From contig JAIEQK010000011.1 of the NCBI GenBank assembly GCA_019747795.1, forward strand, positions 7,737 to 71,736: a DNA stretch of 64,000 nucleotides. The letters are read 5' to 3'. The stretch is from Gammaproteobacteria bacterium (GTDB lineage: Bacteria; Pseudomonadota; Gammaproteobacteria; Ga0077536). A program made the translations under genes and the position numbers. This document shows positions 4,902-43,669 of this stretch, one piece after another. The first letter of the stretch is position 1. Each line of letters begins with the position of its first letter. The notes beneath the pieces are model-generated. The model was given only the letters and a program-made list of their open reading frames with translations. It ran no database searches and was not told where the DNA came from.

Positions 4902-5234
4902 ATGGCCCTGCACGCGGCCTGGGGATGGGTGCTTGGCGCCATCGTCGCGGAAACGATCGCCGCGCTCGCGCTCCGCGCGAGCGATGGTTTTACCCGTCCG
5001 CTGCCGGCGCTGTTGGCGACGGCGAGTTTCGCCTGCGCCTTCTATCTCACCAGCCTGGCGCTGGTGGTCCTGCCGGTCAGCCTGGTCTACCCGGTGTGGG
5101 CGGGCGGCGGCACGGCGGGCGCCGCGACCGCGGCGCTGTGGCTCTACGGCGAGCGTGCCGGCGCGCAAAAGATGCTGGGCGTCGCCGCCGTCGTGGCCGG
5201 CATCGTGGTGCTGAACATCGCCGCGCCCGCGTGA
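4902..5234 (+). CDS. SMR-family protein, subunit B of the paired SMR transporter.
   Basis: Paralogous to the preceding ORF (VAETIAALALRASDGF..., LVYPVWAGGGTAG) and separated from it by 7 nt. This arrangement is typical of heterodimeric SMR pumps. Confidence 0.8.
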   Translation: MALHAAWGWVLGAIVAETIAALALRASDGFTRPLPALLATASFACAFYLTSLALVVLPVSLVYPVWAGGGTAGAATAALWLYGERAGAQKMLGVAAVVAGIVVLNIAAPA

Positions 5235-5251
5235 GCGGGAGAGGAGAGCAG

Positions 5252-6379
5252 ATGGGCGTCTACCTCCGCTACTTCGGTACCCACCTGCTGCTGCTGGTGA
5301 CCGCCGTAGGCTTCCTCCTCGGCGGCGCCGCTCACTGGCTCGGTCTCGCCAGCGGCGTGGTGGTGTGGATCGGCGCAGACGCGCTCAGCCCGCGCGTGGG
5401 CGCCGCGCCCGCCTATCGCCATCGCGCGCTGCTGGACGTCGCGCTCTACAGTCTGTTCCCGCCGCTCGCGGCGCTGACGGCGATTTTCGCCTGGAGCCTG
5501 TCGAGGACCGATGTCCTCGGCTTCGGCGCCTGGCTGCACTCGGCCTTCGGCTACGACGCCCTCGCGGCGCGCGCGGCGACCGCCGGCTGGGACCTGGTGG
5601 GTGGGGCCTGGTCCTTCGCCCTCGCCATCGCGCTCGGCGGCATCCTGGTCGCGCACGAACTCGTGCATCGCACCCGCGATCCACTCGCGCTGGCGGTTGG
5701 GCGCTGGATGCTCGCCATCGCCTTCAACGCCACGCTCGAAGTGGCCCACGTGTTCGGTCATCACCGCGACGTCGGCACGCCGGCGGATCCGACCACCGCG
5801 CGCCGCGGCGAGAGCGTCTATCACTTCTACCTGCGCTCGACCTTCGGGCAGGTAGCCCAGGCCTGGCAGATCGAGCGTGAGCGCCTGGCGGGTGCCTCCG
5901 CGTGGCAACGCTGGTGGAGCAACCGTGTGCTGCGCGGCTTCCTGCGTTCGTGGAGCGTGGCCGGCGTGTTCTTTGCCGTTGGCGGCTGGCGCGCGCTCGG
6001 CGTGTTCCTGCTCGCCGCCGCCTACAACAAGCTGCTGCTCGAAGCGCTCAACTACATGGAGCACTACGGCCTGGTGCGCGTGCCCGGCACGCCGATAGAG
6101 CCACGCCACTCCTGGAATTCCGTGAGCGCCTTCAGCCATGCCGTGCTGTTCAACCTGCCCTGGCACGCCGATCACCATGCGCGCAGCCAGGTTCAGTACC
6201 CGGAACTGCACGCGACCGAGACCGCGCCCGTGCTCGGCCAGGGCTACCTTGCCACGTTGCCGCTGGTGCTCGTGCCGCCCCTGTGGCGCAGGCTGATCGC
6301 CCCCCGCCTGGCCGCCTGGGATCGCGAGCGCGCGAGCGCGGCGGAACGTTGCCTGGTGGGAGGGGACGGCGGTGGGTGA
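5252..6379 (+). CDS. Integral-membrane di-iron hydroxylase/desaturase of the AlkB/fatty-acid-desaturase family.
   Basis: Three histidine boxes: HELVHR, HVFGHHRD and HADHHAR. Multiple TM helices. RBS GAGGAGAG lies 4 nt upstream of the ATG. Confidence 0.7.
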   Translation: MGVYLRYFGTHLLLLVTAVGFLLGGAAHWLGLASGVVVWIGADALSPRVGAAPAYRHRALLDVALYSLFPPLAALTAIFAWSLSRTDVLGFGAWLHSAFGYDALAARAATAGWDLVGGAWSFALAIALGGILVAHELVHRTRDPLALAVGRWMLAIAFNATLEVAHVFGHHRDVGTPADPTTARRGESVYHFYLRSTFGQVAQAWQIERERLAGASAWQRWWSNRVLRGFLRSWSVAGVFFAVGGWRALGVFLLAAAYNKLLLEALNYMEHYGLVRVPGTPIEPRHSWNSVSAFSHAVLFNLPWHADHHARSQVQYPELHATETAPVLGQGYLATLPLVLVPPLWRRLIAPRLAAWDRERASAAERCLVGGDGGG

Positions 6380-6429: not shown

Positions 6430-7650
6430 TCAGGGGGCAGGCAGCGGAGCGCGTACCGGCAGGCAGAGCGTGAGTGCGAAACAGAGTACGAGCATGAGGC
6501 TGCTGCCGAGCAGGCAGGCGCTCATGCCGCCCACTGCGGTAAGCGTGCCGGACAGCAGCACGCCGCACAGACGCCCACCGGCGTTGGCCGCGTAGTAGAA
6601 GCCGACGTCCTCGGCTGCCTTCTCCGAGCCCGCGTAGGCGAGGATGAGGTAGGAGTGCAGCGAGGACATCACCGCGAACGCGCCGCCGAACGCGCACAGT
6701 CCCGCGGTGACGATCAGCGTTGCGTGCCGCGGGTCGCTGGTGGTCAGCAGCAGCGCGATCGCGAGCGGCAGGCTCACCAGTAGCGCGCTCCACAGGCGAG
6801 CTTCCGGGACTTCGCGGGAGAGACCGTCAGGGCTGCGGCGCACGAGGCGCGGCGCGAGTGCCTGCACCAGGCCGTAACCGATGGTCCACAGCGCGAGGAA
6901 GCCGGCCACTTCCATGTAGCGCCAGCCGTGCGCGTAGAGAAACACCGGCAGGCCGACCACGAACCACACGTCACGCGCGCCGAACAGGCACAGGCGCGCG
7001 GCGGCCATCAGGTTGACGGCGCGCGACTTGGCGAAAAGCTCGCGGATGGAGCGCGAGGCCTTGGCCTGGCCGAGCGCGCGGGGCAGGGCGAGCGCCGTGA
7101 GGATCAATACGCTCACCAGGGCGGCGGCCATCACCGCCAGCGCGCCGCGAAACCCCAGGGCCTCGAGCAACACGCCGCCGAGGAAGAAGCCGATGCCCTT
7201 CATGGTGTTCTTCGAGCCGGTGAACCAGGCCACCCAGCGGAACAGGCGACCGTGCTCGCCGGCCGAAGTCGCCTTTAGCGCGGACTTCGCCGCGGTCTTG
7301 GTGAGGTCCTTGGCCACCCCGGCGACGCCCTGCGCGAGGACGACACAAGCGACCGACAGCGGCGCCTGCCAGCCGGGGTCGAGCGCCGCCAAGGCGCCGA
7401 TGCCGAGCAACTGCAGGACCATGCCGGTCATCAGCATCCGCGGGATGCCGTAACGGGTCGCGAGCCAGCCACCGACCAGGTTCGCGACCACGCCCGCGCC
7501 CTCGTACAGCACGAACAAGCTCGCGAGCTGCACGGGCGTGAAGCCCACGCGGTTGAAGTGGAGCAGGATGAGCGTGCGCAGCGCGCCGTCGGTGAGGGTG
7601 AATACCCAGTAGGCACCGGTCACCACCGCGTAGCTGCGCACGGCGGACAT
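6430..7650 (-). CDS. arsJ: MFS transporter ArsJ-like (organoarsenical 1-arseno-3-phosphoglycerate efflux permease), gene partner of GAPDH.
   Basis: 12-TM MFS protein starting [17 protein letters not shown]. Its start codon overlaps the gapdh stop by 1 nt (TGATG). The gapdh-arsJ pairing is characteristic of ars operons. Confidence 0.75.
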   Translation of the reverse strand: MSAVRSYAVVTGAYWVFTLTDGALRTLILLHFNRVGFTPVQLASLFVLYEGAGVVANLVGGWLATRYGIPRMLMTGMVLQLLGIGALAALDPGWQAPLSVACVVLAQGVAGVAKDLTKTAAKSALKATSAGEHGRLFRWVAWFTGSKNTMKGIGFFLGGVLLEALGFRGALAVMAAALVSVLILTALALPRALGQAKASRSIRELFAKSRAVNLMAAARLCLFGARDVWFVVGLPVFLYAHGWRYMEVAGFLALWTIGYGLVQALAPRLVRRSPDGLSREVPEARLWSALLVSLPLAIALLLTTSDPRHATLIVTAGLCAFGGAFAVMSSLHSYLILAYAGSEKAAEDVGFYYAANAGGRLCGVLLSGTLTAVGGMSACLLGSSLMLVLCFALTLCLPVRAPLPAP

Positions 7651-8693
7651 CAGGCGTCCCGCGCCGCCACGATGCTCGCCAGATCGATCATGCGACACGC
7701 GTAGCCGGCCTCGTTGTCGTACCAGGCATAGACCTTGAGCAGGGTGTCGTCGGTCACCAGCGTGCTCGGACCGTCGATGATGGCGCTGCGCGTGTCGTTG
7801 GCGTAGTCGGCGGAGACCAGCGGGCGCGACTCGAAGCCGAGGATGCCGGCCAGCGGGCCGGCGGCGGCGGTCGCGAACAGCTGGTTGATTTCTTCCGCGG
7901 TGACCGCGCGCCGCATTTCGAACACGCAGTCGGTGAGGCTCGCGTTCAGCACCGGCACGCGTACCGCGTGGCCGTTCAGCTTGCCGGCCAGCTCCGGGTA
8001 GATGAGGCCGATGGCCGTCGCGCTGCCGGTGGTGGTCGGCGCGAGCGACAGCAGCGCCGAGCGCGCGCGGCGCAGATCCGCGTGGGGCGCGTCGACCACC
8101 ACGTTGGTGTTGGTCGGGTCGTGCAGCGTGGTGATCTGTCCATGGCGAATGCCGATGGCTTCGTGCAGCACCTTGACCACCGGCGCGAGGCAGTTGGTGG
8201 TGCAGGACGCGGCGGTCAGCAGCCGATGTTCGGTGGGGCGGTAGAGATGATCGTTCACGCCGACCACCACGTTCAGCGCGCTGCCGTCCTTGACCGGCGC
8301 CGCGACGATGACACGCTTCACGCCCTGCCGAAAATAGCCTTCGAGGGTTGCCTGAGTGAGGAAGCGTCCGGTGCATTCCAGCACCAGATCGCAGCCGAGT
8401 GCGCCCCAGGGCACGTCGCCAGGGTTCGGCAGGGCGCTGAAGCCGATGCGTGTACCGGCGACGCTCAGCGCCCCGGGTCCGTCCACCGCTATTTCCGTGC
8501 GCCAGCGGCCGTGCACGCTGTCGAATTCCAACAGGTGCGCGGTGGCCGCCGCGCCGCCCTTGATCTCGTTCACGTGGACGATCTCCAGCCGCTGCGCGCG
8601 GCGGGGATCGTCCACCGGGCGCGGCAGGCCGCCGAGCGCCGCGCGTGCGACCAGGCGCCCGATGCGCCCCATGCCGTTGATGCCGACTCGCAT
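7650..8693 (-). CDS. gapdh: Glyceraldehyde-3-phosphate dehydrogenase, ars-operon associated.
   Basis: [13 protein letters not shown] Rossmann N-terminus. Catalytic '[10 protein letters not shown]' motif. C-terminal WYDNEAGY signature. Confidence 0.9.
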
Positions 8694-8706
8694 TCCTGGT
8701 GCTCCT

Positions 8707-9246
8707 TCAGCTGGTGAGTTCATCGTCGCCGTCAACGGCGCGCGGCAAGCGGCCGATGTCGTCGAGCTTGCGTTGCAAGGTGAGCGAGTCCAGCGCCGCC
8801 AGGGGCAGGCTCAAGAAGAGTTCGATGCGCCGCTTGATCTGCAGCGTCGCCTGCTCGAACGCGCGCCGTCGGCTCTCCGGCGAGCCGCCCCTCAGTCCAG
8901 GATCGTCGATGCCCCAGTGCGCGGTCACGGGCTGCCCCGGCCATTGCGGGCAGGTCTCGCCGGCGGCGGCGTCGCACAGGGTGAAGATGAAATCGAGGCG
9001 CGGCGCCGCGGGGCGGGTGAATTCGTCCCAGGACTTGCTGCGCATGTTCTCGGTCGGCAGGTGCATCTCTTCGATCATGGCCCGCGCGAGCGGATGCACG
9101 AAACCCGACGGGTGGCTGCCGGCGGAATAGGCGCGAAAACGTCCGCCGCCCAGGTGTGCGAGCAGCGCTTCAGCGATCAGCGAGCGCGAGGAATTGGCCG
9201 TGCACAGGAAGAGCACCGCGTAGCAGATGTCGGGCGTTGCGGTCAT
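8707..9246 (-). CDS. arsC: Arsenate reductase ArsC, low-molecular-weight phosphatase family (thioredoxin-coupled type).
   Basis: CX5R P-loop 'LCTANSSRS' at the N-terminus, plus downstream Cys pair ([15 protein letters not shown]). ~179 aa. Confidence 0.85.
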
Positions 9247-9329
9247 GCCGCGGGTCTCGGCGTCGAGGGTGGGCGTCGAAGGTAGAAGGGCATTGTTACC
9301 AATAGGTGACGCGTGGCGAAGGCGTGTTA

Positions 9330-9350
9330 TTTAGTTGTCATTGACAACCG
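9330..9350. promoter_or_regulatory. Perfect palindrome TTGTCATTGACAA in the arsC/marR divergent intergenic region. Candidate operator.
   Basis: TTGTCA-T-TGACAA inverted repeat seen directly in the sequence, 50-60 nt upstream of the MarR start. A second GGTT-N10-AACC dyad follows. Confidence 0.3.
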
Positions 9351-9398
9351 AATGCGCGGCAACTACCTTGCGATCATGGTTTCCACTAGCAACCAATC

Positions 9399-9881
9399 AT
9401 GACAGACACATCCACTGCCGGCGCGCTGCTGCGCGAGATCGCCCGCAGGTATTCCCGCGCGCAACGGGTGGTCGCCGACTGTTGCCGGGCGACAGGCACC
9501 CAGTGCCATCTGCTGACCGAGCTGGATGGTGCGGGACCGCTCTCACTGATCGATCTCGGCGCCCGCCTGTGCCTGGAGAAGAGCTGGGTGTCCCGCGCGG
9601 TCGATGCCATGGTCCAGCGCGGCCTGGTCACCAAGGAGCCCAACCCCGCGGACGCGCGCAGCTGGCTGGTCACCTTGACCCCGGCCGGCGCGCAGACCGC
9701 CGCCGAACTCAACCGCAGCCTGGACAACCACGCCGAGCAGCTTCTGGCCGGGCTCAATGCCCGCCAGCGCGCGAGCGTCGAAGCCAGCCTGCACCTCCTG
9801 ATGGAGGCCCTCAAACAGGACGGCGCGGCCAACTGCTGCCTGCCCGCCACCACGAAGAAAGGAGCGAACGCATGCTGCTGA
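9399..9881 (+). CDS. MarR-family transcriptional regulator with vicinal-cysteine pairs at both termini.
   Basis: wHTH core 'LTELDGAGPLSLIDLGARLCLEKSWVSRAVDAMVQRGLV'. N-terminal 'ADCCRATGTQC'. C-terminal tail 'ANCCLPATTKKGANACC*'. Confidence 0.75.
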   Translation: MTDTSTAGALLREIARRYSRAQRVVADCCRATGTQCHLLTELDGAGPLSLIDLGARLCLEKSWVSRAVDAMVQRGLVTKEPNPADARSWLVTLTPAGAQTAAELNRSLDNHAEQLLAGLNARQRASVEASLHLLMEALKQDGAANCCLPATTKKGANACC

Positions 9882-11749
9882 ACGAATCCCTGCGTCTGCG
9901 GCCCGCCACGCCGGCCGACTGGCCGATGATCGCGAGCTTGCTGGAATGCGAGCAGCTGCCCCTGGCCGGCGCGCGCGAACACCTGGCCACCTTCGTGGTG
10001 GCGGTCCTGGACGACCGCGTGGTGGGCGTGGCCGGCGCCGAAGTCCATGGCGATGTGGCCCTGCTGCGTTCGGTGGCGGTGGAGAAGGGGATGCAAGGTC
10101 GCGGCATCGGCCGGCGCATGGTCGAGCTGATGCTGAGTGAGGCCGCGCGCCGCGACATCGTCGAGGTGTATCTCCTCACCACTGGCGCCGCCGAGTACTT
10201 TCCGCGCTTCGGTTTCAGCCCGCGCGAGCGCGCGAGCGCGCCCGCCGCGCTGGCGGCCTCCGCGGAGTTCCAGGGCGCCTGCCCGGACTCGGCGGCGCTG
10301 CTCGGTCTGCGCCTGCGCGATCGAGTGATGCCGAGCGGCGAGCTGCCGGTTGCCGTAATCGGCGCCGGGCCGGTGGGGCTGGCCGCGGTGGCGCGCCTGC
10401 TCGAACGCGGCATCGAGCCCCTGGTGTTCGAAGCGGGCGCCACCGTGGCCGCGAGCTACGTCGACTTCGGTCACGTGCGTCTGTTCTCGCCCTGGCGCGC
10501 GAACATCGACCCGTGCATGGCCGCGATGCTCGAGGCCCGCGGCTGGACGCCGCCGCCCAGTGAAGATCTGCCGCTCGCGAGCGAGGTCGTGAGCGGCGTG
10601 CTGGAACCCTTTGCCGCGCTGCCGGAAGTGGCGCGCAGCCTGCACCTGCAAAGCAAGGTGGTGGCCATTACGCGCGAGGGCCATGACAAGGTGCAGAGCG
10701 CAGGCCGCGAGGCCGCGCCCTTCGTCCTGCGCGTCGAGCGCGACGGTGTCGTGCAGGAGTTTCGCGCACGCGCCGTGATCGACGCGAGCGGCACCTGGCA
10801 GTCGCCGAATCCGCTGGGCGGGAACGGCCTGCCGGCGCTGGGCGAAGAGCAGCTGGCGACTTTCATCCACTACGGCATTCCGGACGTGCTCGGCAGCGCG
10901 CGAGCGCGCTATGCCGGCAAGCGCACGCTGGTGGTCGGCGCCGGTCACTCCGCGGCGAACAGCCTGCTCGCCCTGGCCGAACTGGCGCGCGAAGCGCCGG
11001 GCACGCGTTTCGTGTGGGCGGTGCGCTCCGAGTCGCTCGCCCGCGTGTTCGGCGGCGGCGCGGCCGATGGCCTGCCGGCGCGCGGCCAGCTTGGCCAGGC
11101 GCTGAAGGCGCTTCGCGACTCGGGCCAGATGGAGTTCGTGAGCGGCGTACGTATCGACGCCATGGAACGCGACGGCAAGGCCTTGCGCGTGCGCGGCCGA
11201 CGGGTCCGTGGCGAGACGGTGGACATCGCGGGCATCGACGAGATCATCTGCGCCACCGGTCAGCGACCCGATCTCGGCATGACGCGCGAACTGCGCCTGG
11301 CGCTCGACCCCTGGCTGGAATCGGTCCAGGCCCTCGGGCCGCTGATCGATCCCAACCTGCACAGCTGCGGCTCGGTGCGCCCCCACGGGCACCGCGAGCT
11401 GTCGCACCCGGAAGCGGGCTTCTACACCGTCGGCGTGAAGAGCTACGGCCGCGCGCCGACCTTCCTGATGATGACCGGCTTCGAACAGGTGCGCTCGGTG
11501 GTGGCGGCCTTGGCGGGCGACCTCGCGGCCGCCGACCGGCTGGAGCTCGAACTCCCCGAGACCGGCGTGTGCTCGGTCAGCGCCGATCTCGACCTGGGTG
11601 CGGGCAGCGCCTGTTGTGGGACGAGCGAGGTCGAGATCCCGGCGCCCTCGGCCAGCGCCTGCTGCGCGGCGCCCTCGGCATCGATGCCAGCGGCCGAGAG
11701 CGCCTGCTGCGCGAAGCCGGTCGCCAAGCCTGCGGCCTGCTGCGGCTGA
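9872..11749 (+). CDS. Fusion protein: N-terminal GNAT acetyltransferase (ArsN-like) plus FAD/NAD(P)-binding flavin monooxygenase/oxidoreductase (ArsO/CzcO-like) plus a C-terminal tail of four Cys-Cys pairs.
   Basis: GNAT motif 'VAVEKGMQGRGIGRRMVE'. Two Rossmann dinucleotide motifs: 'VAVIGAGPVGLAAVARLLERG' and 'TLVVGAGHSAANSLLAL'. Tail 'SACCGTSEVEIPAPSASACCAAPSASMPAAESACCAKPVAKPAACCG*'. The start overlaps the marR end by 10 nt. Confidence 0.7.
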   Translation: MLLNESLRLRPATPADWPMIASLLECEQLPLAGAREHLATFVVAVLDDRVVGVAGAEVHGDVALLRSVAVEKGMQGRGIGRRMVELMLSEAARRDIVEVYLLTTGAAEYFPRFGFSPRERASAPAALAASAEFQGACPDSAALLGLRLRDRVMPSGELPVAVIGAGPVGLAAVARLLERGIEPLVFEAGATVAASYVDFGHVRLFSPWRANIDPCMAAMLEARGWTPPPSEDLPLASEVVSGVLEPFAALPEVARSLHLQSKVVAITREGHDKVQSAGREAAPFVLRVERDGVVQEFRARAVIDASGTWQSPNPLGGNGLPALGEEQLATFIHYGIPDVLGSARARYAGKRTLVVGAGHSAANSLLALAELAREAPGTRFVWAVRSESLARVFGGGAADGLPARGQLGQALKALRDSGQMEFVSGVRIDAMERDGKALRVRGRRVRGETVDIAGIDEIICATGQRPDLGMTRELRLALDPWLESVQALGPLIDPNLHSCGSVRPHGHRELSHPEAGFYTVGVKSYGRAPTFLMMTGFEQVRSVVAALAGDLAAADRLELELPETGVCSVSADLDLGAGSACCGTSEVEIPAPSASACCAAPSASMPAAESACCAKPVAKPAACCG

Positions 11750-11758
11750 GACGCGTCG

Positions 11759-12946
11759 ATGTCGCGCACCGCGACCGTGGTCGTGCTCGGCATCGGCCAG
11801 ACGCTGGGTTGGGGCTCGACCTACTACCTGCCCGCGGTGCTGGCCGCGCCGATGGCCCAGGAACTGGGCGTGCCGACCGCGATGGTCTACGCGGCGTTCT
11901 CCGCGTCGCTGGTTCTGTCCGCCCTGGTCGGTCCGCTGGCCGGGCGTCTCATCGACGCCCACGGCGGACGCGGACTGCTGATGGCGACCAACGTAGTCTT
12001 CGCGCTGGGCCTCGCCGCGCTCGGCGCCGCGCAGGGCGTGCTCTCGCTGTTCGCGGCCTGGGCGGTGCTCGGCATCGGCATGGGCAGTGGGCTCTACGAG
12101 GCGGCGTTCGCCACCGTGGTCAGGCTGTGGCGCTACGAATCGCGCAACGCCATCACCGGCATCACGCTCATCGCGGGCTTCGCCAGCACCGTGGCCTGGC
12201 CGCTCAGCGCCTGGCTGAACGCGGAGTTCGGTTGGCGCATCGCGTGTCTCGCCTGGGCGGGGCTGCATCTCGGCGTCGCCTTGCCCTTGCACATGCGCGT
12301 GCCGCGTCCTTCGGCGGACGAGGCGCCAGCCGAGCAGAGCGCCGCGTCGACGCCGACGTCGGAGCACCGCTCCACACCTGAACTGCTGCCCGCCAATCCC
12401 ACCGTCACCGCGGCCGTGCTCGGCTACGTGTTCGCCGTCACCTGGTTCATCGCCACCGCGATGGCGGCCCATCTGCCGCGCATGCTCGAGGCGGCCGGCG
12501 CGAGCGTGACGCTGGCGGTGGCGGCGGGCGCCTTGATCGGCCCGGCCCAGGTGGGCGCGCGATTGCTGGAGTTCAGCCTGCTGCGCCACATCTCCCCGCT
12601 GTTCTCCGCCAGGCTCGCGGCCCTGGCCCATCCGCTCGGCGCGCTGGTGCTGCTGTTCGGCGGAGGCGCCTACGCCGCCGCGTTCACGGTGCTGCACGGC
12701 GCGGGTAACGGCATCCTGACCATCGCCAAGGGCACCTTGCCGCTGGTGTTCTTCGGCCCGGATGGCTACGGCGCCCGCCAGGGCTGGCTGATGCTGCCGG
12801 CGCGGGTCGCGCAGGCCGTCGCGCCACTTGCCTTCAGCCTGGCCCTGGACGGACTGGGTGGCCAGGTGGCCTGGTTGTCCGGTGGACTCGCGACCAGTGC
12901 GCTGCTGGCGCTGCTGGTGCTCAGACCGCCCGTGCGGCGCCTATGA
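11759..12946 (+). CDS. MFS transporter. Possible metalloid/organoarsenical efflux permease.
   Basis: 12 predicted TM helices. MFS signature region 'GPLAGRLIDAHGGRG'. Lies 10 nt downstream of the GNAT-FMO gene. Confidence 0.7.
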   Translation: MSRTATVVVLGIGQTLGWGSTYYLPAVLAAPMAQELGVPTAMVYAAFSASLVLSALVGPLAGRLIDAHGGRGLLMATNVVFALGLAALGAAQGVLSLFAAWAVLGIGMGSGLYEAAFATVVRLWRYESRNAITGITLIAGFASTVAWPLSAWLNAEFGWRIACLAWAGLHLGVALPLHMRVPRPSADEAPAEQSAASTPTSEHRSTPELLPANPTVTAAVLGYVFAVTWFIATAMAAHLPRMLEAAGASVTLAVAAGALIGPAQVGARLLEFSLLRHISPLFSARLAALAHPLGALVLLFGGGAYAAAFTVLHGAGNGILTIAKGTLPLVFFGPDGYGARQGWLMLPARVAQAVAPLAFSLALDGLGGQVAWLSGGLATSALLALLVLRPPVRRL

Positions 12947-13060
12947 ATACGTCGAGTGACCCATGCGCGTCTCGCGCCGTCCACGGCAGCGCGGAACCCC
13001 ACACGGGCTGTCTCCCACAACCATCACCATCACCCTGAACCTTCAACCGAGGATAGACAC

Positions 13061-13339
13061 ATGAGCACTCTCTCCATGCGCGATCGCGAACTCGTGGCGC
13101 TGGGCGCCGCGCTGGCCAGCAACTGCATCCCCTGCATCGAGTTCCACGTGCCCGCCGCCCGCAAGGCCGGCCTGAGCGACGCCGACATCGCCGAAGCCAT
13201 CGCGCTGGCCGACAAGATCCGCAAGGTCCCGGCGGACAAGGCGCTCGATGCCGCGCACGCGCAGCTGGGCGCGGCGCCGGCCGTGGCTGGCAGCGCCTGT
13301 TGCGCGCCCTCGGCAGAGCCGGGCAAGGCGTGTTGTTGA
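13061..13339 (+). CDS. Carboxymuconolactone-decarboxylase/AhpD-like small redox protein with a C-terminal di-Cys-pair tail.
   Basis: AhpD-core CxxC motif 'ASNCIPCIEFH'. Tail 'SACCAPSAEPGKACC*'. 92 aa. Confidence 0.65.
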   Translation: MSTLSMRDRELVALGAALASNCIPCIEFHVPAARKAGLSDADIAEAIALADKIRKVPADKALDAAHAQLGAAPAVAGSACCAPSAEPGKACC

Positions 13340-13391
13340 GCGCGCGGCCCGGCCGTCCGCGGGGCGGCCGGGCCCATGGAGGACCGCGTCC

Positions 13392-14030
13392 ATGAACGAT
13401 TCGCCGAGCATCGAACTCGACTTCGATGTCATCGCGCGCGAGCAGTCTCCCGCGCTGCTGCGCTATCTGCGCCGACGTGTCGGGGACCACGCCGACGCCG
13501 CCGATCTCTTGCAGGAGACGCTGATCAAGGCGAGCCGTGGTCTCGGCAGCTTCGCCGGCCGCGCGTCGCTGCAGACCTGGCTGTTGGCCATCGCCCGCAA
13601 TGTCGCCAACGATTTCCTGCGCAGACCCGAGCGCCGTCACTCGTTCGTTGCGGTGGAGGAGGCCATCGAGGTGGAGGACGGCGCACTCGGCGTCGAGCAG
13701 CGCATGGAAGCCGACGAGACGAATCTTTGCGTGCGCGAAGTCATCGACAGCCTGACGCCGGACTACCGCGCGGCGCTCATCCTCCACGACCTGGAAGGTC
13801 TGGATTGCGAGCAGACCGCCGAAGTCGTGGGTGGCAGCGTGGGCGCGGTCAAGGTGCGCCTCCACCGCGCGCGCCTGCGTCTCAAGTCCGTGCTCGAGCG
13901 CAGGTGCGGCTTCTATCGAGACAGCGACAGCGTGCTGCGCTGTGAGCGACGGGACGTGTCGTCGATCCCCGCGGGTGGAGCAGCCGACCGGTCGCCAACG
14001 CCTCCGCGCGCGTTGGGCGTATTTCTGTAA
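13392..14030 (+). CDS. ECF-type RNA polymerase sigma-70 factor with a ~50-aa Cys-containing C-terminal extension.
   Basis: Region 2 'LLRYLRRRVGDHADAADLLQETLIKA'. Region 4 'YRAALILHDLEGLDCEQTAEVVGGSVGAVKVRLHRAR'. Extension '...RRCGFYRDSDSVLRCERRD...'. Confidence 0.8.
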   Translation: MNDSPSIELDFDVIAREQSPALLRYLRRRVGDHADAADLLQETLIKASRGLGSFAGRASLQTWLLAIARNVANDFLRRPERRHSFVAVEEAIEVEDGALGVEQRMEADETNLCVREVIDSLTPDYRAALILHDLEGLDCEQTAEVVGGSVGAVKVRLHRARLRLKSVLERRCGFYRDSDSVLRCERRDVSSIPAGGAADRSPTPPRALGVFL

Positions 14031-14287: not shown

Positions 14288-14440
14288 ATGAGCGCCGAGC
14301 TCGAGAAACGCCGAGACGAGGCGCTGGTCAGCGTCGCCTGGCTGGCGGACAACCTCGATCGACCGGGCCAGCGCATCGTCGACATGCGCAAGGGCGATGG
14401 CTATGACGCTGCCCACATACCCGGGGCCGTCAGCCGATGA
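14288..14440 (+). pseudogene. Truncated rhodanese/sulfurtransferase N-terminal fragment (50 codons).
   Basis: Translation 'MSAELEKRRDEALVSVAWLADNLDRPGQRIVDMRKGDGYDAAHIPGAVSR*' matches the start of a rhodanese domain through the AHIPGA motif, then hits a stop. Neither continuing frame extends the domain. ATGA overlap with the next ORF. Confidence 0.35.
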
Positions 14441-15216
14441 CTACCCGTGTAATCCTGTCCGGGCGTGACGCCGAACTGGTCGCTCAGGTTCGTAGGCGCC
14501 TGGCGGCAGCGTGTGACGGTCGAGGGGGCATGACGATTGAGGTGGCATCCGCCGCCGGCGCATCCTGCGATCTCTGGATCGCGTTGGACCCCGGCGCGGA
14601 CGGCCCGCCGGCGCCGCCGCTGCGGCCACGCTACGTCGATTGGTCGTTGCTTGGTGGCTGGTGGGCGAGCAACCGACAGGCGCATGCCGATCCCAGCGCC
14701 GCGTACGCCGCGCTGGACGCGCTGCTGCAGCCGCGTATCGCCGTGCTGCTTGCGCTGCTGCCGGTGCCGGGCGGACCCGCCGCCGCGGAATTCCACGCCA
14801 GCCTGCGCGTGCAGGACCTGCCGCGCAGCGTGGCCTTCTACGCCTGGCTGCTCGACACCTGGCCGCGGGAGTGGACACACCGCTATGCGACCTTCATCCG
14901 GCCGGATCTCGCGCTCAACTTCGTGCTGATGGTCGCCGACGGCAACGCGCTTCACCACGACACGCTGTATCACCTCGGGATCGCGCTGCCGGATCGGGCC
15001 GCGGTCATCGATGCCTATCACCGCGCGCGCGCTTTCGGCGCCTGCATCTCGAAGCCGCCGCGCACGACCTGGCGGGGAACGCCACTGCACGAACTGTGGC
15101 TGGAGGATCCCGACGGTACGCTGATCGAGATCTATGCGCGCCTGACGCCCGCGGAACTGGCCGACATGCCGGCGGACCAGGCGCCGGTGTTCCTGGTGCC
15201 CGGCACGGCGCCGTGA
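14437..15216 (+). CDS. VOC-superfamily (glyoxalase/bleomycin-resistance/dioxygenase fold) protein with an uncharacterised ~110-aa N-terminal region.
   Basis: C-terminal half 'FHASLRVQDLPRSVAFYAWLLDT...HLGIALPDRAAVIDAYHRARAFG...HELWLEDPDGTLIEIYAR' is typical of glyoxalase-I-like beta-alpha-beta-beta-beta modules. It has no vicinal Cys, so it is not an ArsI-type C-As lyase. Confidence 0.6.
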   Translation: MTTRVILSGRDAELVAQVRRRLAAACDGRGGMTIEVASAAGASCDLWIALDPGADGPPAPPLRPRYVDWSLLGGWWASNRQAHADPSAAYAALDALLQPRIAVLLALLPVPGGPAAAEFHASLRVQDLPRSVAFYAWLLDTWPREWTHRYATFIRPDLALNFVLMVADGNALHHDTLYHLGIALPDRAAVIDAYHRARAFGACISKPPRTTWRGTPLHELWLEDPDGTLIEIYARLTPAELADMPADQAPVFLVPGTAP

Positions 15217-33934: not shown

Positions 33935-34018
33935 GACAGGCTCGCGCCCCTCAATCGGCACGCGCCGCGCTCACCGCGCCCAGAACGCCATAACGACAAT
34001 CACATTCGGGAGAGAGTC

Positions 34019-34597
34019 ATGAACAAGCATTCGCGCCGAGGCCTGCTGGCCCGCACCCTGTTGCTGCTGAGCCTGGTCGCCCCCTGGGTGACGACGTTCG
34101 CCCAGGAAACCAGCGCCGACTACCCGATCAAGCCCGGCGACACCCTCATCGTCAATGTCTGGAAGGAACAGGACCTGACCATGGAAGTGCTGGTGCGCCC
34201 GGACGGCAAGTTCAGCTTCCCGCTCGCCGGCGACATACAGGCCGCGGGCCGTTCCGTCGAGCAGGTGCGCCAGGACGTGGTGGCGAAGATCTCCTCCTAT
34301 ATCCCAGACGTGGTCGCGACCGTGATGGTCAAGATGATCGACGGCAACCGCGCCTACGTGGTTGGCAAGGTCTTGAAACCCGGCCCCATCCTCATGCTCT
34401 CCCAGACCAACGTCATGCAGGCCCTGTCCATGGCCGGCGGCACGGTGCAGTTCGCCGGGCTCAAGAACATCAAGATCCTGCGCGGCCAGGGTGGCGCCCA
34501 GACCGCCATCCCGTTCAACTACGATGAAGTGGAGGACGGGGAGAACCTTGAGCAGAACGTGGTGCTGGAGCCGGGGGATGTGGTGGTGGTGCCGTAA
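34019..34597 (+). CDS. Polysaccharide export protein (Wza/GumB-like Poly_export + SLBB, PEP-CTERM-locus type).
   Basis: Signal peptide. 'PGDTLIVNVWKEQDL...VRPDGKFSFPLAGDIQAAG' export motif. 192 aa. Confidence 0.75.
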   Translation: MNKHSRRGLLARTLLLLSLVAPWVTTFAQETSADYPIKPGDTLIVNVWKEQDLTMEVLVRPDGKFSFPLAGDIQAAGRSVEQVRQDVVAKISSYIPDVVATVMVKMIDGNRAYVVGKVLKPGPILMLSQTNVMQALSMAGGTVQFAGLKNIKILRGQGGAQTAIPFNYDEVEDGENLEQNVVLEPGDVVVVP

Positions 34598-34629
34598 GGC
34601 GCGGCCGCGTGTGGGGGGACGTTTCAACC

Positions 34630-35865
34630 ATGGCTAAACGCTGCATAGTCGCGGGACTGGGGATGGTCGCGCTGTGTGGGCAGGGGGCTCAAGCGGTGGA
34701 CCTTTCATGGGCGCCGCAGCTTAGGGTAGGGACTCGGGCGACGGATAACATCCAATGGACGACCACTGGAAAGGAAGCTGCCCTTGGCTTCGATACTGGA
34801 GGCGGTCTAGCACTCAAAGCCGTCGCTCAGGCGTGGAACTCCGCGGTAAATCCGTCATTTAACTTTCGTAGATTTCTCATTGGTGAGGACATCGACGCAG
34901 ACGAGTACGGGGTAAGGAGCCAGCACCAGTACAAAGTGACAGAACGTGTGCAGACTTCATTGCAGGCCGATTACGTGCGCGATTCGACACTGAGCTCAGA
35001 GCTTACCGACGCCGGGCGGAGGAACGACGTGGCAAACCGCGATACGCTAACTATCGCGCCAGGGGTGAATTACCTCGTCACCGACAGCACGGTCGTGAAC
35101 GCAAGCTACATGTATTCAGACGTTGGATTTGATGCTTCGCTCGATCAGGGATTCGTTGATTACACGTTCCAGCAATGGTCGGCGGGCACCACGCATTTCG
35201 TATCCGGGCGACTGCAGGTTTCTGCGAATTTCTTCGTCACCGATTTCGAAGTTGCCAGCACAAGCAGCGAGACTTGGACCTATGGCGGAATGGTGGGAGC
35301 CACTTACAGTTGGTCTGACAGCTTGTCCACCACGGGGAGCGTGGGTTATCAAACCGCCAGCACAGACTTCGTCGAACAGATTCTGACCGTAGTACCGGGA
35401 ACCAATCCGCCCCAGATTGTGGTCGTGGAGCAGCCCGCCAACTCGAAGTCGAGTGGCCCGATTGCCAACTTCGGTATCAGGAAGCGCTTCGCGAACATGC
35501 GGGCAGAGTTCAACTATGCGCGGCGCGTGAGCCCCAGTGCTCGCGGCGCTCAGACGCTAGAGGACGACATCATGTTGAATATCGACTATGACGTCTCTGA
35601 GCGCTGGGGTCTCGGGTTTCGCGGGGGCTATAACCTGCGTAGTGCCCAGGCCGAAGAACTCGGAGGCGCAATTCGAGACCTGAACAGAAATCAGGGTTCT
35701 CTGGGCGGATCCGTGACATATAAGGCGAGCGAAGAGATTTCGTTTCGCGGCGAGTATCGCTTTACGCGCCAGACGCTTGCCGAGACTGATGAGCGGGTCT
35801 ATGTCCACGCGATGTTCGTCTCGATGATTTTCAATGGCGCACCTCATTTCCACAATGTCTTTTAG
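34630..35865 (+). CDS. Putative outer-membrane beta-barrel protein associated with the exosortase EPS locus.
   Basis: Signal peptide MAKRCIVAGLGMVALCGQGAQA. Alternating-hydrophobicity strands rich in Tyr/Thr/Ser/Asn. C-terminal aromatic 'HNVF'. Markedly lower GC than neighbouring genes. Confidence 0.45.
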   Translation: MAKRCIVAGLGMVALCGQGAQAVDLSWAPQLRVGTRATDNIQWTTTGKEAALGFDTGGGLALKAVAQAWNSAVNPSFNFRRFLIGEDIDADEYGVRSQHQYKVTERVQTSLQADYVRDSTLSSELTDAGRRNDVANRDTLTIAPGVNYLVTDSTVVNASYMYSDVGFDASLDQGFVDYTFQQWSAGTTHFVSGRLQVSANFFVTDFEVASTSSETWTYGGMVGATYSWSDSLSTTGSVGYQTASTDFVEQILTVVPGTNPPQIVVVEQPANSKSSGPIANFGIRKRFANMRAEFNYARRVSPSARGAQTLEDDIMLNIDYDVSERWGLGFRGGYNLRSAQAEELGGAIRDLNRNQGSLGGSVTYKASEEISFRGEYRFTRQTLAETDERVYVHAMFVSMIFNGAPHFHNVF

Positions 35866-36110
35866 ATATTCCATGGACGGGCGTGAAAACGGTAGGAAAC
35901 GATGGAGAAAGAAATCAAGTTCGCTCTGTACTGTGGACCGGCGAGCATGCGCCAAACGTGTCTTGTGAGAGATTCATCTTGCGGCCCGAGTTGACGTGCG
36001 TTGATCCGCCTTTTGTCGACTTAGCCACAAATCTTGTGGTGTCTGCGGCGCTTCAATAACAAAGGTTCCCCAAAACCAATTCCCTATGGAACTTCTCAAT
36101 AGGTCCAAAC

Positions 36111-37856: not shown

Positions 37857-37885
37857 GCCTCTTTCGAATCAATGGGATTTTTGCA

Positions 37886-38689: not shown

Positions 38690-38697
38690 GTAGCATC

Positions 38698-39546: not shown

Positions 39547-39572
39547 CGTGTCTTGAATATCGGATAATCAGC

Positions 39573-40700: not shown

Positions 40701-40713
40701 CCCGTCGCCTTCC

Positions 40714-43664: not shown

Positions 43665-43669
43665 GCGCC

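What the first reader, a model, noticed from the sequence alone, without database searches (positions are those of the whole stretch)
9872..11749. GNAT acetyltransferase fused to a flavin monooxygenase (ArsN-like::ArsO-like) in one polypeptide
The N-terminal ~150 aa carry a GNAT fold (VAVEKGMQGRGIGRRMVE). The next ~430 aa carry two Rossmann motifs typical of CzcO/ArsO-type FAD/NADPH monooxygenases. GNAT (ArsN) and flavin monooxygenase (ArsO) genes are separately known as accessory ars genes. A covalent fusion of the two, plus a poly-CC tail, implies a coupled oxidation/acetylation of an organo-arsenical or amino-acid-like arsenical (for example an arsinothricin-type compound). It may alternatively reflect a novel detoxification chemistry. 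It is followed directly by an MFS exporter.
Basis: partly seen in the sequence, partly recalled or inferred. Interest (0 to 1): 0.65.

Follow-up and report, generated by a model that had tools for sequence, protein, structure and literature searches.

The report
ArsN2 acetyltransferase fused to ArsV-type flavoenzyme
One real 625-residue gene in an arsenic-resistance island joins an ArsN2-type acetyltransferase, whose function is untested, to an ArsV-type arsenic-oxidising flavoenzyme with a cysteine-rich tail. The fusion is common in Burkholderiales and already in databases, but I found no paper that describes it, and it hints at what ArsN2 does.

Summary
Bases 9872-11749 (+) form one uninterrupted 625-codon gene.

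- **N-terminal domain (aa 1-148):** it passes NCBI's ArsN2 equivalog cut-off (139.9 bits against 125).
- **Flavoprotein domain (aa 158-567):** it has two Rossmann motifs (GAGPVG, GAGHSA).
- **Tail (last 58 residues):** it is predicted to be disordered and carries four CC pairs.
- **Neighbours:** an ArsK-like MFS gene follows 10 nt downstream.

The interpretation needs one correction. The flavoprotein is not ArsO (31 bits against a cut-off of 425). In Streptomyces FR-008, true ArsO and a homologue of this domain are separate genes. [quoted passage not shown] Their cited Roseateles aquatilis "marR-arsV" locus holds the frameshifted orthologue of this fusion.

The gene sits in a tight MarR_ars - fusion - MFS - AhpD-like operon with a conserved operator-like box.

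The fusion is not rare. At least 120 full-length clusters exist, and NCBI labels them only "ArsN2". It recurs in at least three lineages, and some proteins also fuse the AhpD-like domain.

The GNAT domain is closest to N-acetylglutamate synthases. Coupled oxidation and N-acetylation of a glutamate-like arsenical is therefore plausible but untested.

Verdict: a real, undescribed variant of known ars families, of moderate interest.

The parts
9329..9353 (.). Operator-like inverted repeat ATTTAGTTGTCA-T-TGACAACCGAAT in the arsC-marR intergenic region. It overlaps a TTGACA -35-like hexamer.
   Evidence: The inverted repeat was found. A box matching GTTGCTATTGACAAC (up to 3 mismatches) occurs within 160 nt upstream of marR in all 19 related loci that have the MarR gene, 23-106 nt upstream and mostly 63-90. 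Many loci have a second copy just before the start codon. A role as the MarR_ars operator is inferred.
9399..9881 (+). marR_ars: a MarR-family repressor of 160 aa, with a CC pair at aa 28-29 and C-terminal CC pairs at aa 146-147 and 159-160.
   Evidence: Pfam MarR scores 53 bits. It is 63% identical to the MarR of Roseateles aquatilis NZ_NIOF01000003.1, which Yu et al. list as MarR_ars.
9872..11749 (+). Fusion gene of 625 aa plus stop, encoding ArsN2 GNAT :: ArsV-type flavoprotein :: Cys-rich tail.
9872..10315 (+). ArsN2 GNAT domain (aa 1-148). The acetyl-CoA motif QGRGIG is at 10094-10111. Cys137 is invariant, within the conserved segment EFQGACP.
   Evidence: NF040501 scores 139.9 bits against a cut-off of 125. 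Pfam GNAT models match. A profile of the domain best matches N-acetylglutamate synthase acetyltransferase domains: 2r8v at 5.7e-15 and 5yge at 1.4e-14. AlphaFold pLDDT is about 86-94 here.
10316..10342 (+). Short linker (aa 149-157), variable in sequence among orthologues.
   Evidence: Alignment A1.
10343..11572 (+). Flavoprotein domain (aa 158-567). Motifs:
- FAD motif GAGPVG at 10361-10378
- NAD(P)H motif GAGHSA at 10937-10954
- CATGQ at 11249-11263
- invariant HSCG at 11360-11371
- PHGH at 11381-11392
- TGVC at 11561-11572
   Evidence: Pyr_redox_3 and Pyr_redox_2 match. The family has 762 clusters at 50% identity with E<1e-30, mostly stand-alone proteins of about 410-480 aa. The fold is nearest to YpdA/Bdr, N-hydroxylases and FMOs.
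11573..11746 (+). Cys-rich tail predicted to be disordered (aa 568-625), with four (S/A)ACC(G/A) units.
   Evidence: One search gives the sequence. pLDDT is below 50 for 562-625. Of 85 homologues, 84 carry at least one CC in their last 70 aa, and 65 end in CC within two residues of the C-terminus.
11759..12946 (+). MFS transporter related to ArsK, a putative exporter of the operon.
   Evidence: MFS_1 scores 68 bits. ArsK NF033733 scores 236.7 bits, below its cut-off of 400. An MFS gene follows the flavoprotein gene in most of the 85 related loci.
12956..13339 (+). Small CMD/AhpD-like protein with a CxxC (aa 57-60) and a C-terminal CC...CC tail. The start may instead be the ATG at 13061.
   Evidence: CMD scores 52.5 bits and the AhpD core domain matches. 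The same domain is fused to the C-terminus of ArsN2::flavoprotein in P0006, P0010 and L007.
8707..9246 (-). Divergently transcribed LMW-PTP-type arsenate reductase ArsC. It is followed on the minus strand by the ArsJ-associated GAPDH (7650-8735) and an ArsJ-like MFS gene (about 6430-7650).
   Evidence: GAPDH model NF033735 scores 528 bits against a cut-off of 450.

Best explanation
This is a genuine bifunctional enzyme of organoarsenical or antimony detoxification. It is the second gene of a four-gene operon: marR_ars, arsN2::arsV-type fusion, arsK-like MFS, AhpD-like gene.

**Shown**
- One reading frame encodes an ArsN2-family GNAT, a two-dinucleotide-binding flavoprotein and a tail with four vicinal-cysteine pairs.
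- The operon genes overlap or lie 10 nt apart.
- The module is syntenic in many Burkholderiales.

**Inferred from the literature on MarR_ars and ArsV**
- Trivalent metalloids bind the cysteines of MarR_ars and release it from the conserved box that overlaps the -35 hexamer, which switches the operon on.

**My inference**
- The flexible CC tail, together with invariant Cys499 and Cys567, captures the trivalent substrate as a thiolate complex and hands it to the flavin site. The C-terminal Cys pair of MerA and the vicinal pairs of ArsD work this way.
- The MFS exports the product.
- The AhpD-like CxxC protein keeps these thiols reduced or passes on substrate.

**Speculative**
- The ArsN2 half, which is closest to N-acetylglutamate synthases, N-acetylates the alpha-amino group of a glutamate-like arsenical such as arsinothricin, hydroxyarsinothricin or their trivalent forms.
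- On one polypeptide, oxidation would remove the thiol toxicity and acetylation would remove the toxicity of a glutamine-synthetase inhibitor.
For: **Single gene, conserved full length:**

**ArsN2 membership:** 139.9 bits against a cut-off of 125.

**GNAT nearest to N-acetylglutamate synthases:** E about 1e-14 to 1e-15, against 9e-4 for phosphinothricin acetyltransferase.

**Flavoprotein equals the 'ArsV' of the literature (indirect)**
- Yu et al. cite Roseateles aquatilis NZ_NIOF01000003.1 as having marR upstream of arsV.
- That contig is locus L033. The only gene between marR and the MFS gene is the orthologue of this fusion.
- The copy is frameshifted near aa 35 of the GNAT. RefSeq therefore calls only a 481-aa 'NAD(P)-binding domain-containing protein' there, while orthologues in the same 90%-identity cluster are intact 624-aa proteins named ArsN2.
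- No other flavoprotein lies nearby.

**Stand-alone homologues sit in ars operons**
- ArsR-flavoprotein-ArsK in Ensifer adhaerens.
- ArsR-flavoprotein-MFS in Shinella.
- ArsR-flavoprotein followed two genes on by ArsN1 in Bacillus cereus.

**Conserved module:** MarR-(ArsN2:)flavoprotein-MFS recurs across the 85 loci, with a conserved operator-like box.

**Repeated fusion supports a functional link**
- Fusions occur in a Burkholderiales clade, in Pseudoduganella and in an actinobacterial-type protein, P0127.
- Triple fusions with the AhpD-like domain also exist.

**Cys tail is family-wide:**

**Fold:** class-B monooxygenase / TrxR-like.
Against: - I could not retrieve any experimentally characterised ArsV sequence (E. 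adhaerens ST2, Paracoccus sp. SY, Achromobacter As-55). The ArsV assignment rests on one cited locus and on operon context.
- No paper I could search tests the function or substrate of ArsN2.
- Closely related operons carry the flavoprotein without any GNAT (L038, L049, L050). The flavoprotein therefore does not need the GNAT, and the two activities may be independent.
- The best structural match is a disulfide reductase (YpdA/Bdr), not a monooxygenase.
- The structure model is only moderate (pLDDT 72, pTM 0.62). It says nothing reliable about contacts between the domains, and the conserved segment 464-509 is unmodelled.
Confidence: 0.6

Rival explanations
1. The two enzymes are independent and merely co-translated. 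The fusion only guarantees co-expression of an ArsV-type oxidase and an ArsN2 acetyltransferase that act on different substrates, for example MAs(III)/Sb(III) and an unrelated amine. There is no channelling or chemical coupling.
For: Fused and unfused flavoproteins are interleaved in the tree and are 60-75% identical to each other. MarR-flavoprotein-MFS operons without a GNAT exist in close relatives (L038, L049, L050, L043). The linker is short and variable. Both ArsN1 and ArsN2 genes occur near the flavoprotein in different taxa, as expected if they simply share an ars regulon.
Against: The same two families fused in at least three separate lineages, and a third partner (AhpD-like) fused as well. 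That is more than co-regulation usually produces. ArsN genes are also reported fused to arsC and arsD, which points to work on arsenic species themselves.
Confidence: 0.25
2. The flavoprotein half is a reductase rather than a monooxygenase. It would be an NADPH-dependent thiol/disulfide or As-S reductase in the style of YpdA/Bdr, TrxR or MerA. It would use the CC tail and conserved cysteines to recycle arsenical-thiol adducts or to reduce pentavalent arsenicals, with the AhpD-like CxxC protein as redox partner.
For: The top Foldseek hits are bacillithiol disulfide reductase YpdA/Bdr (7a76), with a TM-score of 0.71-0.74 normalised to the target. TrxR-like ferredoxin reductases also match. NCBIfam YpdA gives weak hits. 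The protein has a Cys-rich C-terminal tail, as MerA does, and the AhpD-like CxxC partner can be fused to it.
Against: YpdA model TIGR04018 scores 28 bits against a cut-off of 340. The first Rossmann motif is GAGPVG, so it lacks the cysteine that, as I recall, YpdA needs in that motif. There is no CxxC or CxxxxC in the FAD domain. According to Yu et al., ArsV-family members confer resistance by oxidising MAs(III).
Confidence: 0.1
3. The protein is an N-hydroxylase plus N-acetyltransferase pair of the hydroxamate (siderophore) type. The flavoprotein would N-hydroxylate an amine and the GNAT would acetylate the N-hydroxy group, perhaps on an amino-arsenical.
For: Foldseek matches ornithine, putrescine and cadaverine N-hydroxylases (KtzI, SidA, DesB, PvdA, DfoA) at E about 1e-14 to 1e-16. 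From general knowledge, N-hydroxylase plus acyltransferase is a common pairing.
Against: TM-scores to N-hydroxylases (about 0.5-0.57 normalised to the target) are lower than to YpdA. Pfam Lys_Orn_oxgnase scores 17.5 bits, below its cut-off of 21.3. The GNAT is of the N-acetylglutamate synthase type. Every neighbour is an ars gene, and no siderophore genes are present.
Confidence: 0.03
4. The fusion is an artefact. A frameshift, assembly error or missed stop codon has joined two adjacent genes.
For: One orthologue, in Roseateles aquatilis CCUG 48205, does carry a frameshift inside the GNAT part.
Against: The frame is uninterrupted and GC3 is uniform. More than 120 independent full-length clusters from isolates and metagenomes are collinear across the junction. 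About 33 species-representative genomes hold the fused gene.
Confidence: 0.01

Closest known systems
[quoted passage not shown] Sources: Ensifer adhaerens ST2, Paracoccus sp. SY, Achromobacter sp. As-55 (Zhang et al. 2022; Chen et al. 2021; Yu et al. bioRxiv 10.1101/2021.08.12.456183).
   Same: It has the same operon logic: a metalloid-sensing repressor (MarR_ars or ArsR), then the flavoprotein, then an MFS efflux gene. The R. aquatilis gene that Yu et al. draw as arsV is the orthologue of this gene. Stand-alone homologues in E. adhaerens sit in an ArsR-flavoprotein-ArsK arrangement.
   Different: Here the flavoprotein carries a covalently attached N-terminal ArsN2 domain. The papers I could read do not mention this. 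I could not compare it directly with the characterised ArsV sequences.
ArsN2, clade 2 of the ars-operon GNATs (Nadar et al. 2019, PMC6465285; NCBIfam NF040501).
   Same: It scores above the equivalog cut-off. It is closer to N-acetylglutamate synthases than to phosphinothricin/ArsN1 acetyltransferases, which is how the clade is defined. It lies in an ars operon.
   Different: Canonical ArsN2 is a stand-alone protein of about 150 aa. Here it is the N-terminal quarter of a 625-aa enzyme. I found no paper that tests its substrate.
ArsO, a putative flavin-binding monooxygenase of the Streptomyces FR-008 arsRBOCT cluster (NCBIfam NF040505).
   Same: It is a distantly related two-Rossmann flavoprotein found in ars clusters. 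The N-terminal FAD halves show weak similarity (31-54 bits).
   Different: It scores far below the family cut-off of 425 bits. ArsO is about 350 aa and has no Cys tail. In FR-008, ArsO and the homologue of this domain are two different genes 1.7 kb apart.
ArsN1 / phosphinothricin N-acetyltransferase (arsinothricin resistance).
   Same: It is an acetyl-CoA-dependent GNAT in ars operons that inactivates a glutamate-analogue arsenical. ArsN1-type genes also neighbour stand-alone homologues of the flavoprotein.
   Different: It belongs to a different GNAT clade. The ArsN1 models do not hit the window protein, and the PDB phosphinothricin acetyltransferase matches only at E = 9e-4.
MerA C-terminal Cys pair and ArsD vicinal Cys pairs (textbook knowledge, not tested here).
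   Same: Flexible vicinal-cysteine motifs bind a soft metal(loid) and pass it to a catalytic site or a partner. The CC tail here is flexible, conserved as a feature across the family, and repeated on MarR and on the AhpD-like protein of the same operon.
   Different: There is no sequence homology. The hand-off role is an analogy only.
YpdA/Bdr bacillithiol disulfide reductase (PDB 7a76).
   Same: It is the best structural match of the flavoprotein core, with a TM-score of 0.71-0.74 normalised to the target.
   Different: Sequence identity is 15-18%. TIGR04018 scores 28 bits against a cut-off of 340. This protein has about 100 extra residues, including the conserved HSCG...PHG segment and the Cys tail.

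Membership tests
ArsN2 (NCBIfam NF040501) | Whole-protein score at or above the curated equivalog cut-off | tested here: met
   139.9 bits against a cut-off of 125, covering aa 16-145 and model positions 1-131 of 133.
ArsN2 (NCBIfam NF040501) | GNAT fold with the acetyl-CoA motif Q/R-x-x-G-x-G/A | tested here: met
   Pfam Acetyltransf_1, _7 and _10 score above their cut-offs. QGRGIG lies at aa 75-80, and G78 and G80 are invariant.
ArsN2 (NCBIfam NF040501) | Closer to N-acetylglutamate synthases than to phosphinothricin/ArsN1 acetyltransferases (the clade definition of Nadar et al. 2019) | tested here: met
   Profile search against PDB: N-acetylglutamate synthases 2r8v at 5.7e-15 and 5yge at 1.4e-14; phosphinothricin acetyltransferase 9igk at 8.8e-4. 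No ArsN1 model hit. The definition is read.
ArsN2 (NCBIfam NF040501) | Acetyltransferase activity that confers arsenic or arsenical resistance | not testable with these tools
   No biochemical data exist for this protein. I found no paper that tests the ArsN2 substrate.
ArsV (flavin monooxygenase oxidising MAs(III), Rox(III), Sb(III)) | Homology to an experimentally characterised ArsV | tested here: inconclusive
   The reference sequences could not be retrieved. There is an indirect link: the gene downstream of marR on R. aquatilis NZ_NIOF01000003.1, which Yu et al. call arsV, is the orthologue of this gene, 65% identical over the flavoprotein domain.
ArsV (flavin monooxygenase oxidising MAs(III), Rox(III), Sb(III)) | FAD and NAD(P)H binding in a two-dinucleotide-binding fold | tested here: met
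   GAGPVG and GAGHSA motifs are present, and Pyr_redox_2 and Pyr_redox_3 score above their cut-offs. The fold matches class-B monooxygenases and TrxR-like enzymes.
ArsV (flavin monooxygenase oxidising MAs(III), Rox(III), Sb(III)) | Location in an ars operon under a metalloid-sensing repressor (MarR_ars or ArsR) | tested here: met
   MarR_ars lies immediately upstream with overlapping codons. The same arrangement is seen in 18 or more related loci.
ArsV (flavin monooxygenase oxidising MAs(III), Rox(III), Sb(III)) | NADPH- and O2-dependent oxidation of trivalent arsenicals or antimonite | not testable with these tools
   This needs an enzyme assay.
ArsO (NCBIfam NF040505) | Score at or above the curated cut-off | tested here: not met
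   31.4 bits against a cut-off of 425, matching model positions 3-186 only. In Streptomyces FR-008 pSSFR1, ArsO and this family are separate genes.
YpdA/Bdr bacillithiol disulfide reductase (TIGR04018) | Score at or above the curated cut-off | tested here: not met
   28.1 bits against a cut-off of 339.9. There is structural resemblance only.
Class-B flavoprotein monooxygenases (FMO / N-hydroxylase Pfam families) | Pfam FMO-like or Lys_Orn_oxgnase score at or above the gathering cut-off | tested here: not met
   FMO-like scores 14.9 bits (cut-off 22) and Lys_Orn_oxgnase 17.5 bits (cut-off 21.3). Fold-level similarity exists.
MarR_ars (for the upstream regulator) | MarR fold, an N-terminal Cys-Cys pair, a C-terminal Cys, and a position upstream of arsV or arsN | tested here: met
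   Pfam MarR matches. Cysteines lie at aa 28/29, 146/147 and 159/160. The protein is 63% identical to the R. aquatilis MarR named in Yu et al..
ArsK (NCBIfam NF033733, for the downstream MFS) | Score at or above the curated cut-off | tested here: not met
   236.7 bits against a cut-off of 400. It is a relative of ArsK, not an equivalog, and is 31% identical to the E. adhaerens ArsK.

The most novel reading that the evidence does not exclude
The repeated fusion of ArsN2 to the ArsV-type oxidase, sometimes with an AhpD-like thiol protein as well, reveals the unknown job of ArsN2. The enzyme would be a two-step machine that inactivates amino-acid-type organoarsenicals: trivalent or pentavalent arsinothricin, hydroxyarsinothricin or related natural products. 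The cysteine tail would capture the trivalent compound, the flavin would oxidise it, and the N-acetylglutamate-synthase-like domain would N-acetylate it before MFS export. This would be a second, mechanistically distinct route of arsinothricin-class resistance, widespread in soil and freshwater Burkholderiales.
Probability: 0.2. Interest if true: 0.7.

Novelty: new variant of a known kind. Interest (0 to 1): 0.45.

Why it matters
ArsN was found in 2009 and ArsN2 was named in 2019. The papers I could read give it no function, and NCBI annotation now names thousands of proteins "arsenic resistance N-acetyltransferase ArsN2".

This analysis shows that a large share of them in Burkholderiales are 600-aa-plus bifunctional proteins. 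About 430 of their residues form an ArsV-type flavoprotein that the name ignores.

The recurrent fusion (at least three lineages, plus triple fusions with an AhpD-like protein) works as a Rosetta stone. It predicts that ArsN2 acts on, or right next to, the substrate or product of an oxidase of trivalent arsenicals. The similarity to N-acetylglutamate synthases narrows the candidates to glutamate-like arsenicals.

That gives a short, concrete list of experiments. It also flags the family-wide vicinal-cysteine tail as a likely substrate-capture device. If the coupling is real, it adds a new resistance route to arsenic-containing antibiotics. If it is not, the finding is still a useful correction to annotation.

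Tried and rejected
**Dead ends**
1. I tried to read the two primary ArsV papers (PMC8865377, PMC8862597). Neither is held, so I could make no direct sequence comparison with characterised ArsV.
2. I tried to reach the Achromobacter As-55 arsV with a second homologue search, seeded with a stand-alone flavoprotein from an Alcaligenaceae MAG. The top 120 hits contained no Achromobacter protein.
3. I looked for accessions or primers in Yu et al. and in a 2026 preprint. Their tables are images and no supplements are held.
4. I searched the literature for any description of an ArsN-flavoprotein fusion. I found none; only arsN-arsC and arsN-arsD fusions are mentioned.

**Identities considered and rejected**
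5. ArsO is rejected.
6. YpdA/Bdr and thioredoxin-reductase membership are rejected on score.
7. The siderophore-type N-hydroxylase plus acetyltransferase reading is rejected on context and scores.
8. A frameshift or two-gene artefact is rejected for the window. One orthologue is frameshifted.

**Limits of the methods**
9. The structure model is too weak in 464-509 and in the tail, and the tool returns no coordinates. I could not examine the geometry of the cysteines relative to the flavin.
10. The simple promoter and terminator scan gave nothing useful inside the operon.

Full report
**1. The observation**

Window bases 9872-11749 (+) translate into 625 codons with a single terminal stop. Third-position GC is flat at 0.87-0.92 in all five segments of the gene, so nothing suggests a change of frame at the domain junction.

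The ATG at 9872 lies 7 nt after a GGAG and overlaps the last codons of the upstream gene: GCATGCTGCTGA reads A-C-C-stop in one frame and M-L-L-N in the other.

The listed ORF reaches back to 9335, and a 1103-aa antisense ORF covers the region. Both are expected in 72% GC DNA and carry no weight.

The reading is not a chance ORF. A search of the 5.8-billion-protein collection returned at least 120 clusters at 60-94% identity that are collinear over the full length. A 30-sequence alignment is continuous through the junction. The exact protein is GenBank MBX9604788.1, [quoted passage not shown].

**2. The N-terminal domain**

- Residues 16-145 match NCBIfam NF040501 (ArsN2, equivalog) at 139.9 bits against a curated cut-off of 125.
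- Pfam GNAT models match at about 1e-10, and the acetyl-CoA motif QGRGIG is present.
- A profile of 16 such domains, including two stand-alone ArsN2 genes, matches best in the PDB to the acetyltransferase domains of N-acetylglutamate synthases: Neisseria 2r8v at 5.7e-15 and Mycobacterium 5yge at 1.4e-14.
- A phosphinothricin acetyltransferase reaches only 9e-4.

[quoted passage not shown] They named it without studying it further. A 2018 review says the function of ArsN is unresolved, and a 2026 paper still only speculates about ArsN2.

**3. The flavoprotein domain is not ArsO**

Residues 158-567 carry GAGPVG and GAGHSA, and Pyr_redox_3 and Pyr_redox_2 score above their cut-offs.

The ArsO model scores 31 bits against a cut-off of 425 and matches only the FAD half.

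On Streptomyces sp. FR-008 plasmid pSSFR1, the true ArsO is a 356-aa protein in the arsR-arsB-arsO arrangement. A 467-aa homologue of the window domain, followed by an MFS gene, lies 1.7 kb away.

An exhaustive HMMER search shows a sizeable family: 762 clusters at 50% identity with E<1e-30. Most members are stand-alone proteins of 410-480 aa.

On plasmids these stand-alone genes sit in ars operons:
- ArsR-flavoprotein-MFS in Shinella
- ArsN1-like GNAT, ArsR, flavoprotein, ArsK in Ensifer adhaerens
- ArsR-flavoprotein, with ArsN1 three genes further on, in Bacillus cereus

**4. Link to ArsV**

Yu et al. (bioRxiv 10.1101/2021.08.12.456183; co-authors include J. Chen and B. Rosen, who described ArsV) define MarR_ars. 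It is a repressor that responds to As(III) and Sb(III), has three conserved cysteines, and sits upstream of arsV or arsN. [quoted passage not shown] They list Roseateles aquatilis NZ_NIOF01000003.1 among the loci with marR upstream of arsV.

My scan of species-representative genomes returned that very contig as L033.
- The gene order is ArsC, ArsC, ACR3, MarR, then the ArsN2 domain and flavoprotein in one gene, then MFS.
- No other flavoprotein lies nearby.
- The R. aquatilis copy has a frameshift near residue 35 of the GNAT part.
- RefSeq therefore annotates only a 481-aa "NAD(P)-binding domain-containing protein" there. Members of the same 90%-identity cluster in Mitsuaria and Roseateles are intact 624-aa proteins named ArsN2.

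So the gene drawn as arsV in that paper is the orthologue of the window gene.

I could not obtain the characterised ArsV sequences themselves. The assignment is therefore indirect. I put it at about 0.85.

**5. Fold**

An AlphaFold2 model built from the 30-sequence alignment has mean pLDDT 72 and pTM 0.62.
- The GNAT and both nucleotide-binding domains are confident.
- Residues 464-509 and 562-625 are below 50.

Foldseek against the PDB gives, in order:
- bacillithiol disulfide reductase YpdA/Bdr (TM-score 0.71-0.74 normalised to the target);
- flavin N-hydroxylases (KtzI, SidA, DesB), TrxR-like ferredoxin reductases and FMOs.

No family-level sequence model for any of these is satisfied.

The low-confidence segment 464-509 is nevertheless one of the most conserved parts of the family. 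It holds the invariant HSCG and PHG, and ETGVC follows further on. Its role is unexplained. It could be a metalloid or metal site, or a dimer interface.

**6. The cysteine tail**

The last 58 residues hold four (S/A)ACC(G/A) units. The tail is a hallmark of the whole flavoprotein family, not of the fusion:
- 84 of 85 homologues examined have at least one CC in their last 70 residues;
- 65 of 85 end in CC within two residues of the C-terminus;
- many share the sub-motif CCGGPA..ACC..D..K..G..GCGCG.

In the window, MarR (…NCCLPATTKKGANACC) and the small AhpD-like protein (…SACCAPSAEPGKACC) end in the same way. From textbook knowledge, vicinal cysteines are the As(III)-binding motif of ArsD, and a flexible C-terminal Cys pair feeds Hg(II) to the active site of MerA. 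A substrate capture and hand-off role is my inference.

**7. Operon and regulation**

- marR overlaps the fusion gene by 10 nt.
- The MFS gene starts 10 nt after the fusion stop.
- The AhpD-like ORF starts 10 nt after the MFS stop.
- A 10-bp GC hairpin follows.

The MFS is related to ArsK but scores below its cut-off (237 bits against 400).

The arsC-marR intergenic region contains the inverted repeat ATTTAGTTGTCA-T-TGACAACCGAAT, which overlaps a TTGACA hexamer. A matching box (consensus TAGTTGCTATTGACAAC) occurs upstream of marR in all 19 related loci that carry the MarR gene. Many have a second copy just before the start codon. It is a good candidate for the MarR_ars operator.

The closest species representative is a MAG, JBFWYG010000008.1. 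Its fusion protein is 86% identical, and it keeps the whole gene order from GAPDH to ACR3.

**8. How common the fusion is, and how often it arose**

- Of the 80 best genome loci, about 33 hold the fused gene. The genera include Roseateles, Mitsuaria, Ideonella, Piscinibacter, Azohydromonas, Variovorax, Pelomonas, Pseudoduganella and a Silanimonas MAG.
- The rest hold the stand-alone form, several with the same MarR and MFS neighbours. Two of them have a separate ArsN2 gene nearby (L037, L062).
- A stand-alone flavoprotein is 74-80% identical to the flavoprotein half of fused proteins.
- A neighbour-joining tree, which is crude, interleaves fused and unfused forms within the main Burkholderiales clade. 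It places the Pseudoduganella fusions inside an otherwise unfused Massilia clade, and the fusion P0127 in an actinobacterial-type clade.
- P0127 has a GNAT that also passes the ArsN2 cut-off (133.9 bits), a long Cys-rich linker and an N-terminal CC-rich extension.
- Other architectures exist: ArsR::flavoprotein (P0126), CC-rich N-terminus::flavoprotein (P0124), and the triple fusion ArsN2::flavoprotein::AhpD-like (P0006, P0010, L007). The third domain of the triple fusion is the homologue of the separate window gene at 12956-13339.

Repeated fusion of the same partners argues for a functional link. The frequent unfused state shows that the flavoprotein does not depend on the GNAT.

**9. Mechanism proposed**

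*Shown:*
- the domain composition;
- the conservation;
- the operon structure;
- the ars context.

*Inferred from the literature:*
- MarR_ars derepression by trivalent metalloids;
- NADPH/FAD/O2-dependent oxidation of MAs(III), Rox(III) and Sb(III) by the flavoprotein half.

*My inference:*
- the CC tail and Cys499/Cys567 capture the thiophilic trivalent substrate;
- the MFS exports the product;
- the AhpD-like CxxC protein services the thiols.

*Speculative:*
- The ArsN2 half is closest to N-acetylglutamate synthases. It would acetylate the alpha-amino group of a glutamate-like arsenical of the arsinothricin or hydroxyarsinothricin class, so that one polypeptide removes both the As(III) thiol toxicity and the antimetabolite toxicity.

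*Rivals:*
- independent activities that are merely co-expressed (0.25);
- a reductase rather than an oxidase (0.1);
- hydroxamate-type chemistry (0.03);
- an artefact (0.01).

**10. Verdict**

The finding is real and the description is largely accurate. The flavoprotein should be called ArsV-type, not ArsO-like. The architecture is abundant and already deposited, but it is named only for its smaller domain.

I found no paper that describes an ArsN2-ArsV fusion; only arsN-arsC and arsN-arsD fusions are mentioned.

I rate it a new variant of a known kind, with interest 0.45. Its main value is as a concrete lead to the function of ArsN2 and to the role of the family-wide cysteine tail.

Noticed in passing
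window 9399-9881, 11573-11746, 13280-13339: Three proteins of the same operon (MarR, the fusion, the AhpD-like protein) all end in vicinal-cysteine (CC...CC) tails. This suggests a shared way of binding trivalent metalloids, or a hand-off chain between them.
   Followed up: partly
window 12956-13339; also P0006, P0010, L007:8001-10200: The window encodes a small CMD/AhpD-like protein with a CxxC motif. In some relatives the same domain is fused to the C-terminus of ArsN2::flavoprotein, giving a triple fusion. AhpD domains are also fused to ArsM in NCBIfam NF041537, so AhpD-arsenic links recur.
   Followed up: partly
window 9329-9353 and about 9377-9395; loci L006-L050 upstream of marR: A conserved box (consensus TAGTTGCTATTGACAAC) overlaps a -35-like TTGACA upstream of marR in all 19 loci that have the MarR gene. 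Many loci have a second, similar box just before the start codon. It is a candidate MarR_ars operator.
   Followed up: partly
window 11261-11398 (aa 464-509 of the fusion): This segment is highly conserved (QRPD...DPNLHSCG.VRPHGH) yet AlphaFold models it with pLDDT below 50. It is absent from the closest solved folds. It could be a metal or metalloid site, or an interface.
   Followed up: no
L033:8001-9873 (Roseateles aquatilis CCUG 48205, NZ_NIOF01000003.1): The orthologue in this type strain has a frameshift near codon 35 of the GNAT part. RefSeq therefore annotates only a 481-aa flavoprotein. This probably explains why the locus was drawn as 'arsV' rather than as a fusion.
   Followed up: yes
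window 13389-14030 and 14437-15216: An ECF-type sigma-70 factor lies inside the ars island. So does an ArsI/CadI-like VOC protein with an extra N-terminal region of about 115 residues, which scores below the ArsI cut-off (46.6 bits against 116).
   Followed up: no
window 4902-6379: An SMR-family small multidrug transporter gene and a membrane gene of the fatty-acid-desaturase/AlkB type lie directly beside the ArsJ-like MFS / GAPDH / ArsC arm of the island. This is unusual company for ars genes.
   Followed up: no
window 34000-43700: GC content drops from about 0.68-0.72 to 0.56-0.62 over a polysaccharide export and synthesis cluster (Poly_export, GNVR chain-length regulator, UDP-GlcNAc 2-epimerase, Wzy_C, flippase). 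This is ordinary and probably horizontally acquired.
   Followed up: partly
window 13346-13374: A perfect 10-bp GC-rich inverted repeat (GGCCCGGCCG ... CGGCCGGGCC) follows directly after the AhpD-like gene stop. It has no T-run. It may mark the end of the operon.
   Followed up: no
P0124, P0126, P0127 (family representatives): The flavoprotein family has other N-terminal fusions: an ArsR HTH domain (P0126), and CC-rich N-terminal extensions either alone (P0124) or ahead of an ArsN2 domain (P0127).
   Followed up: partly
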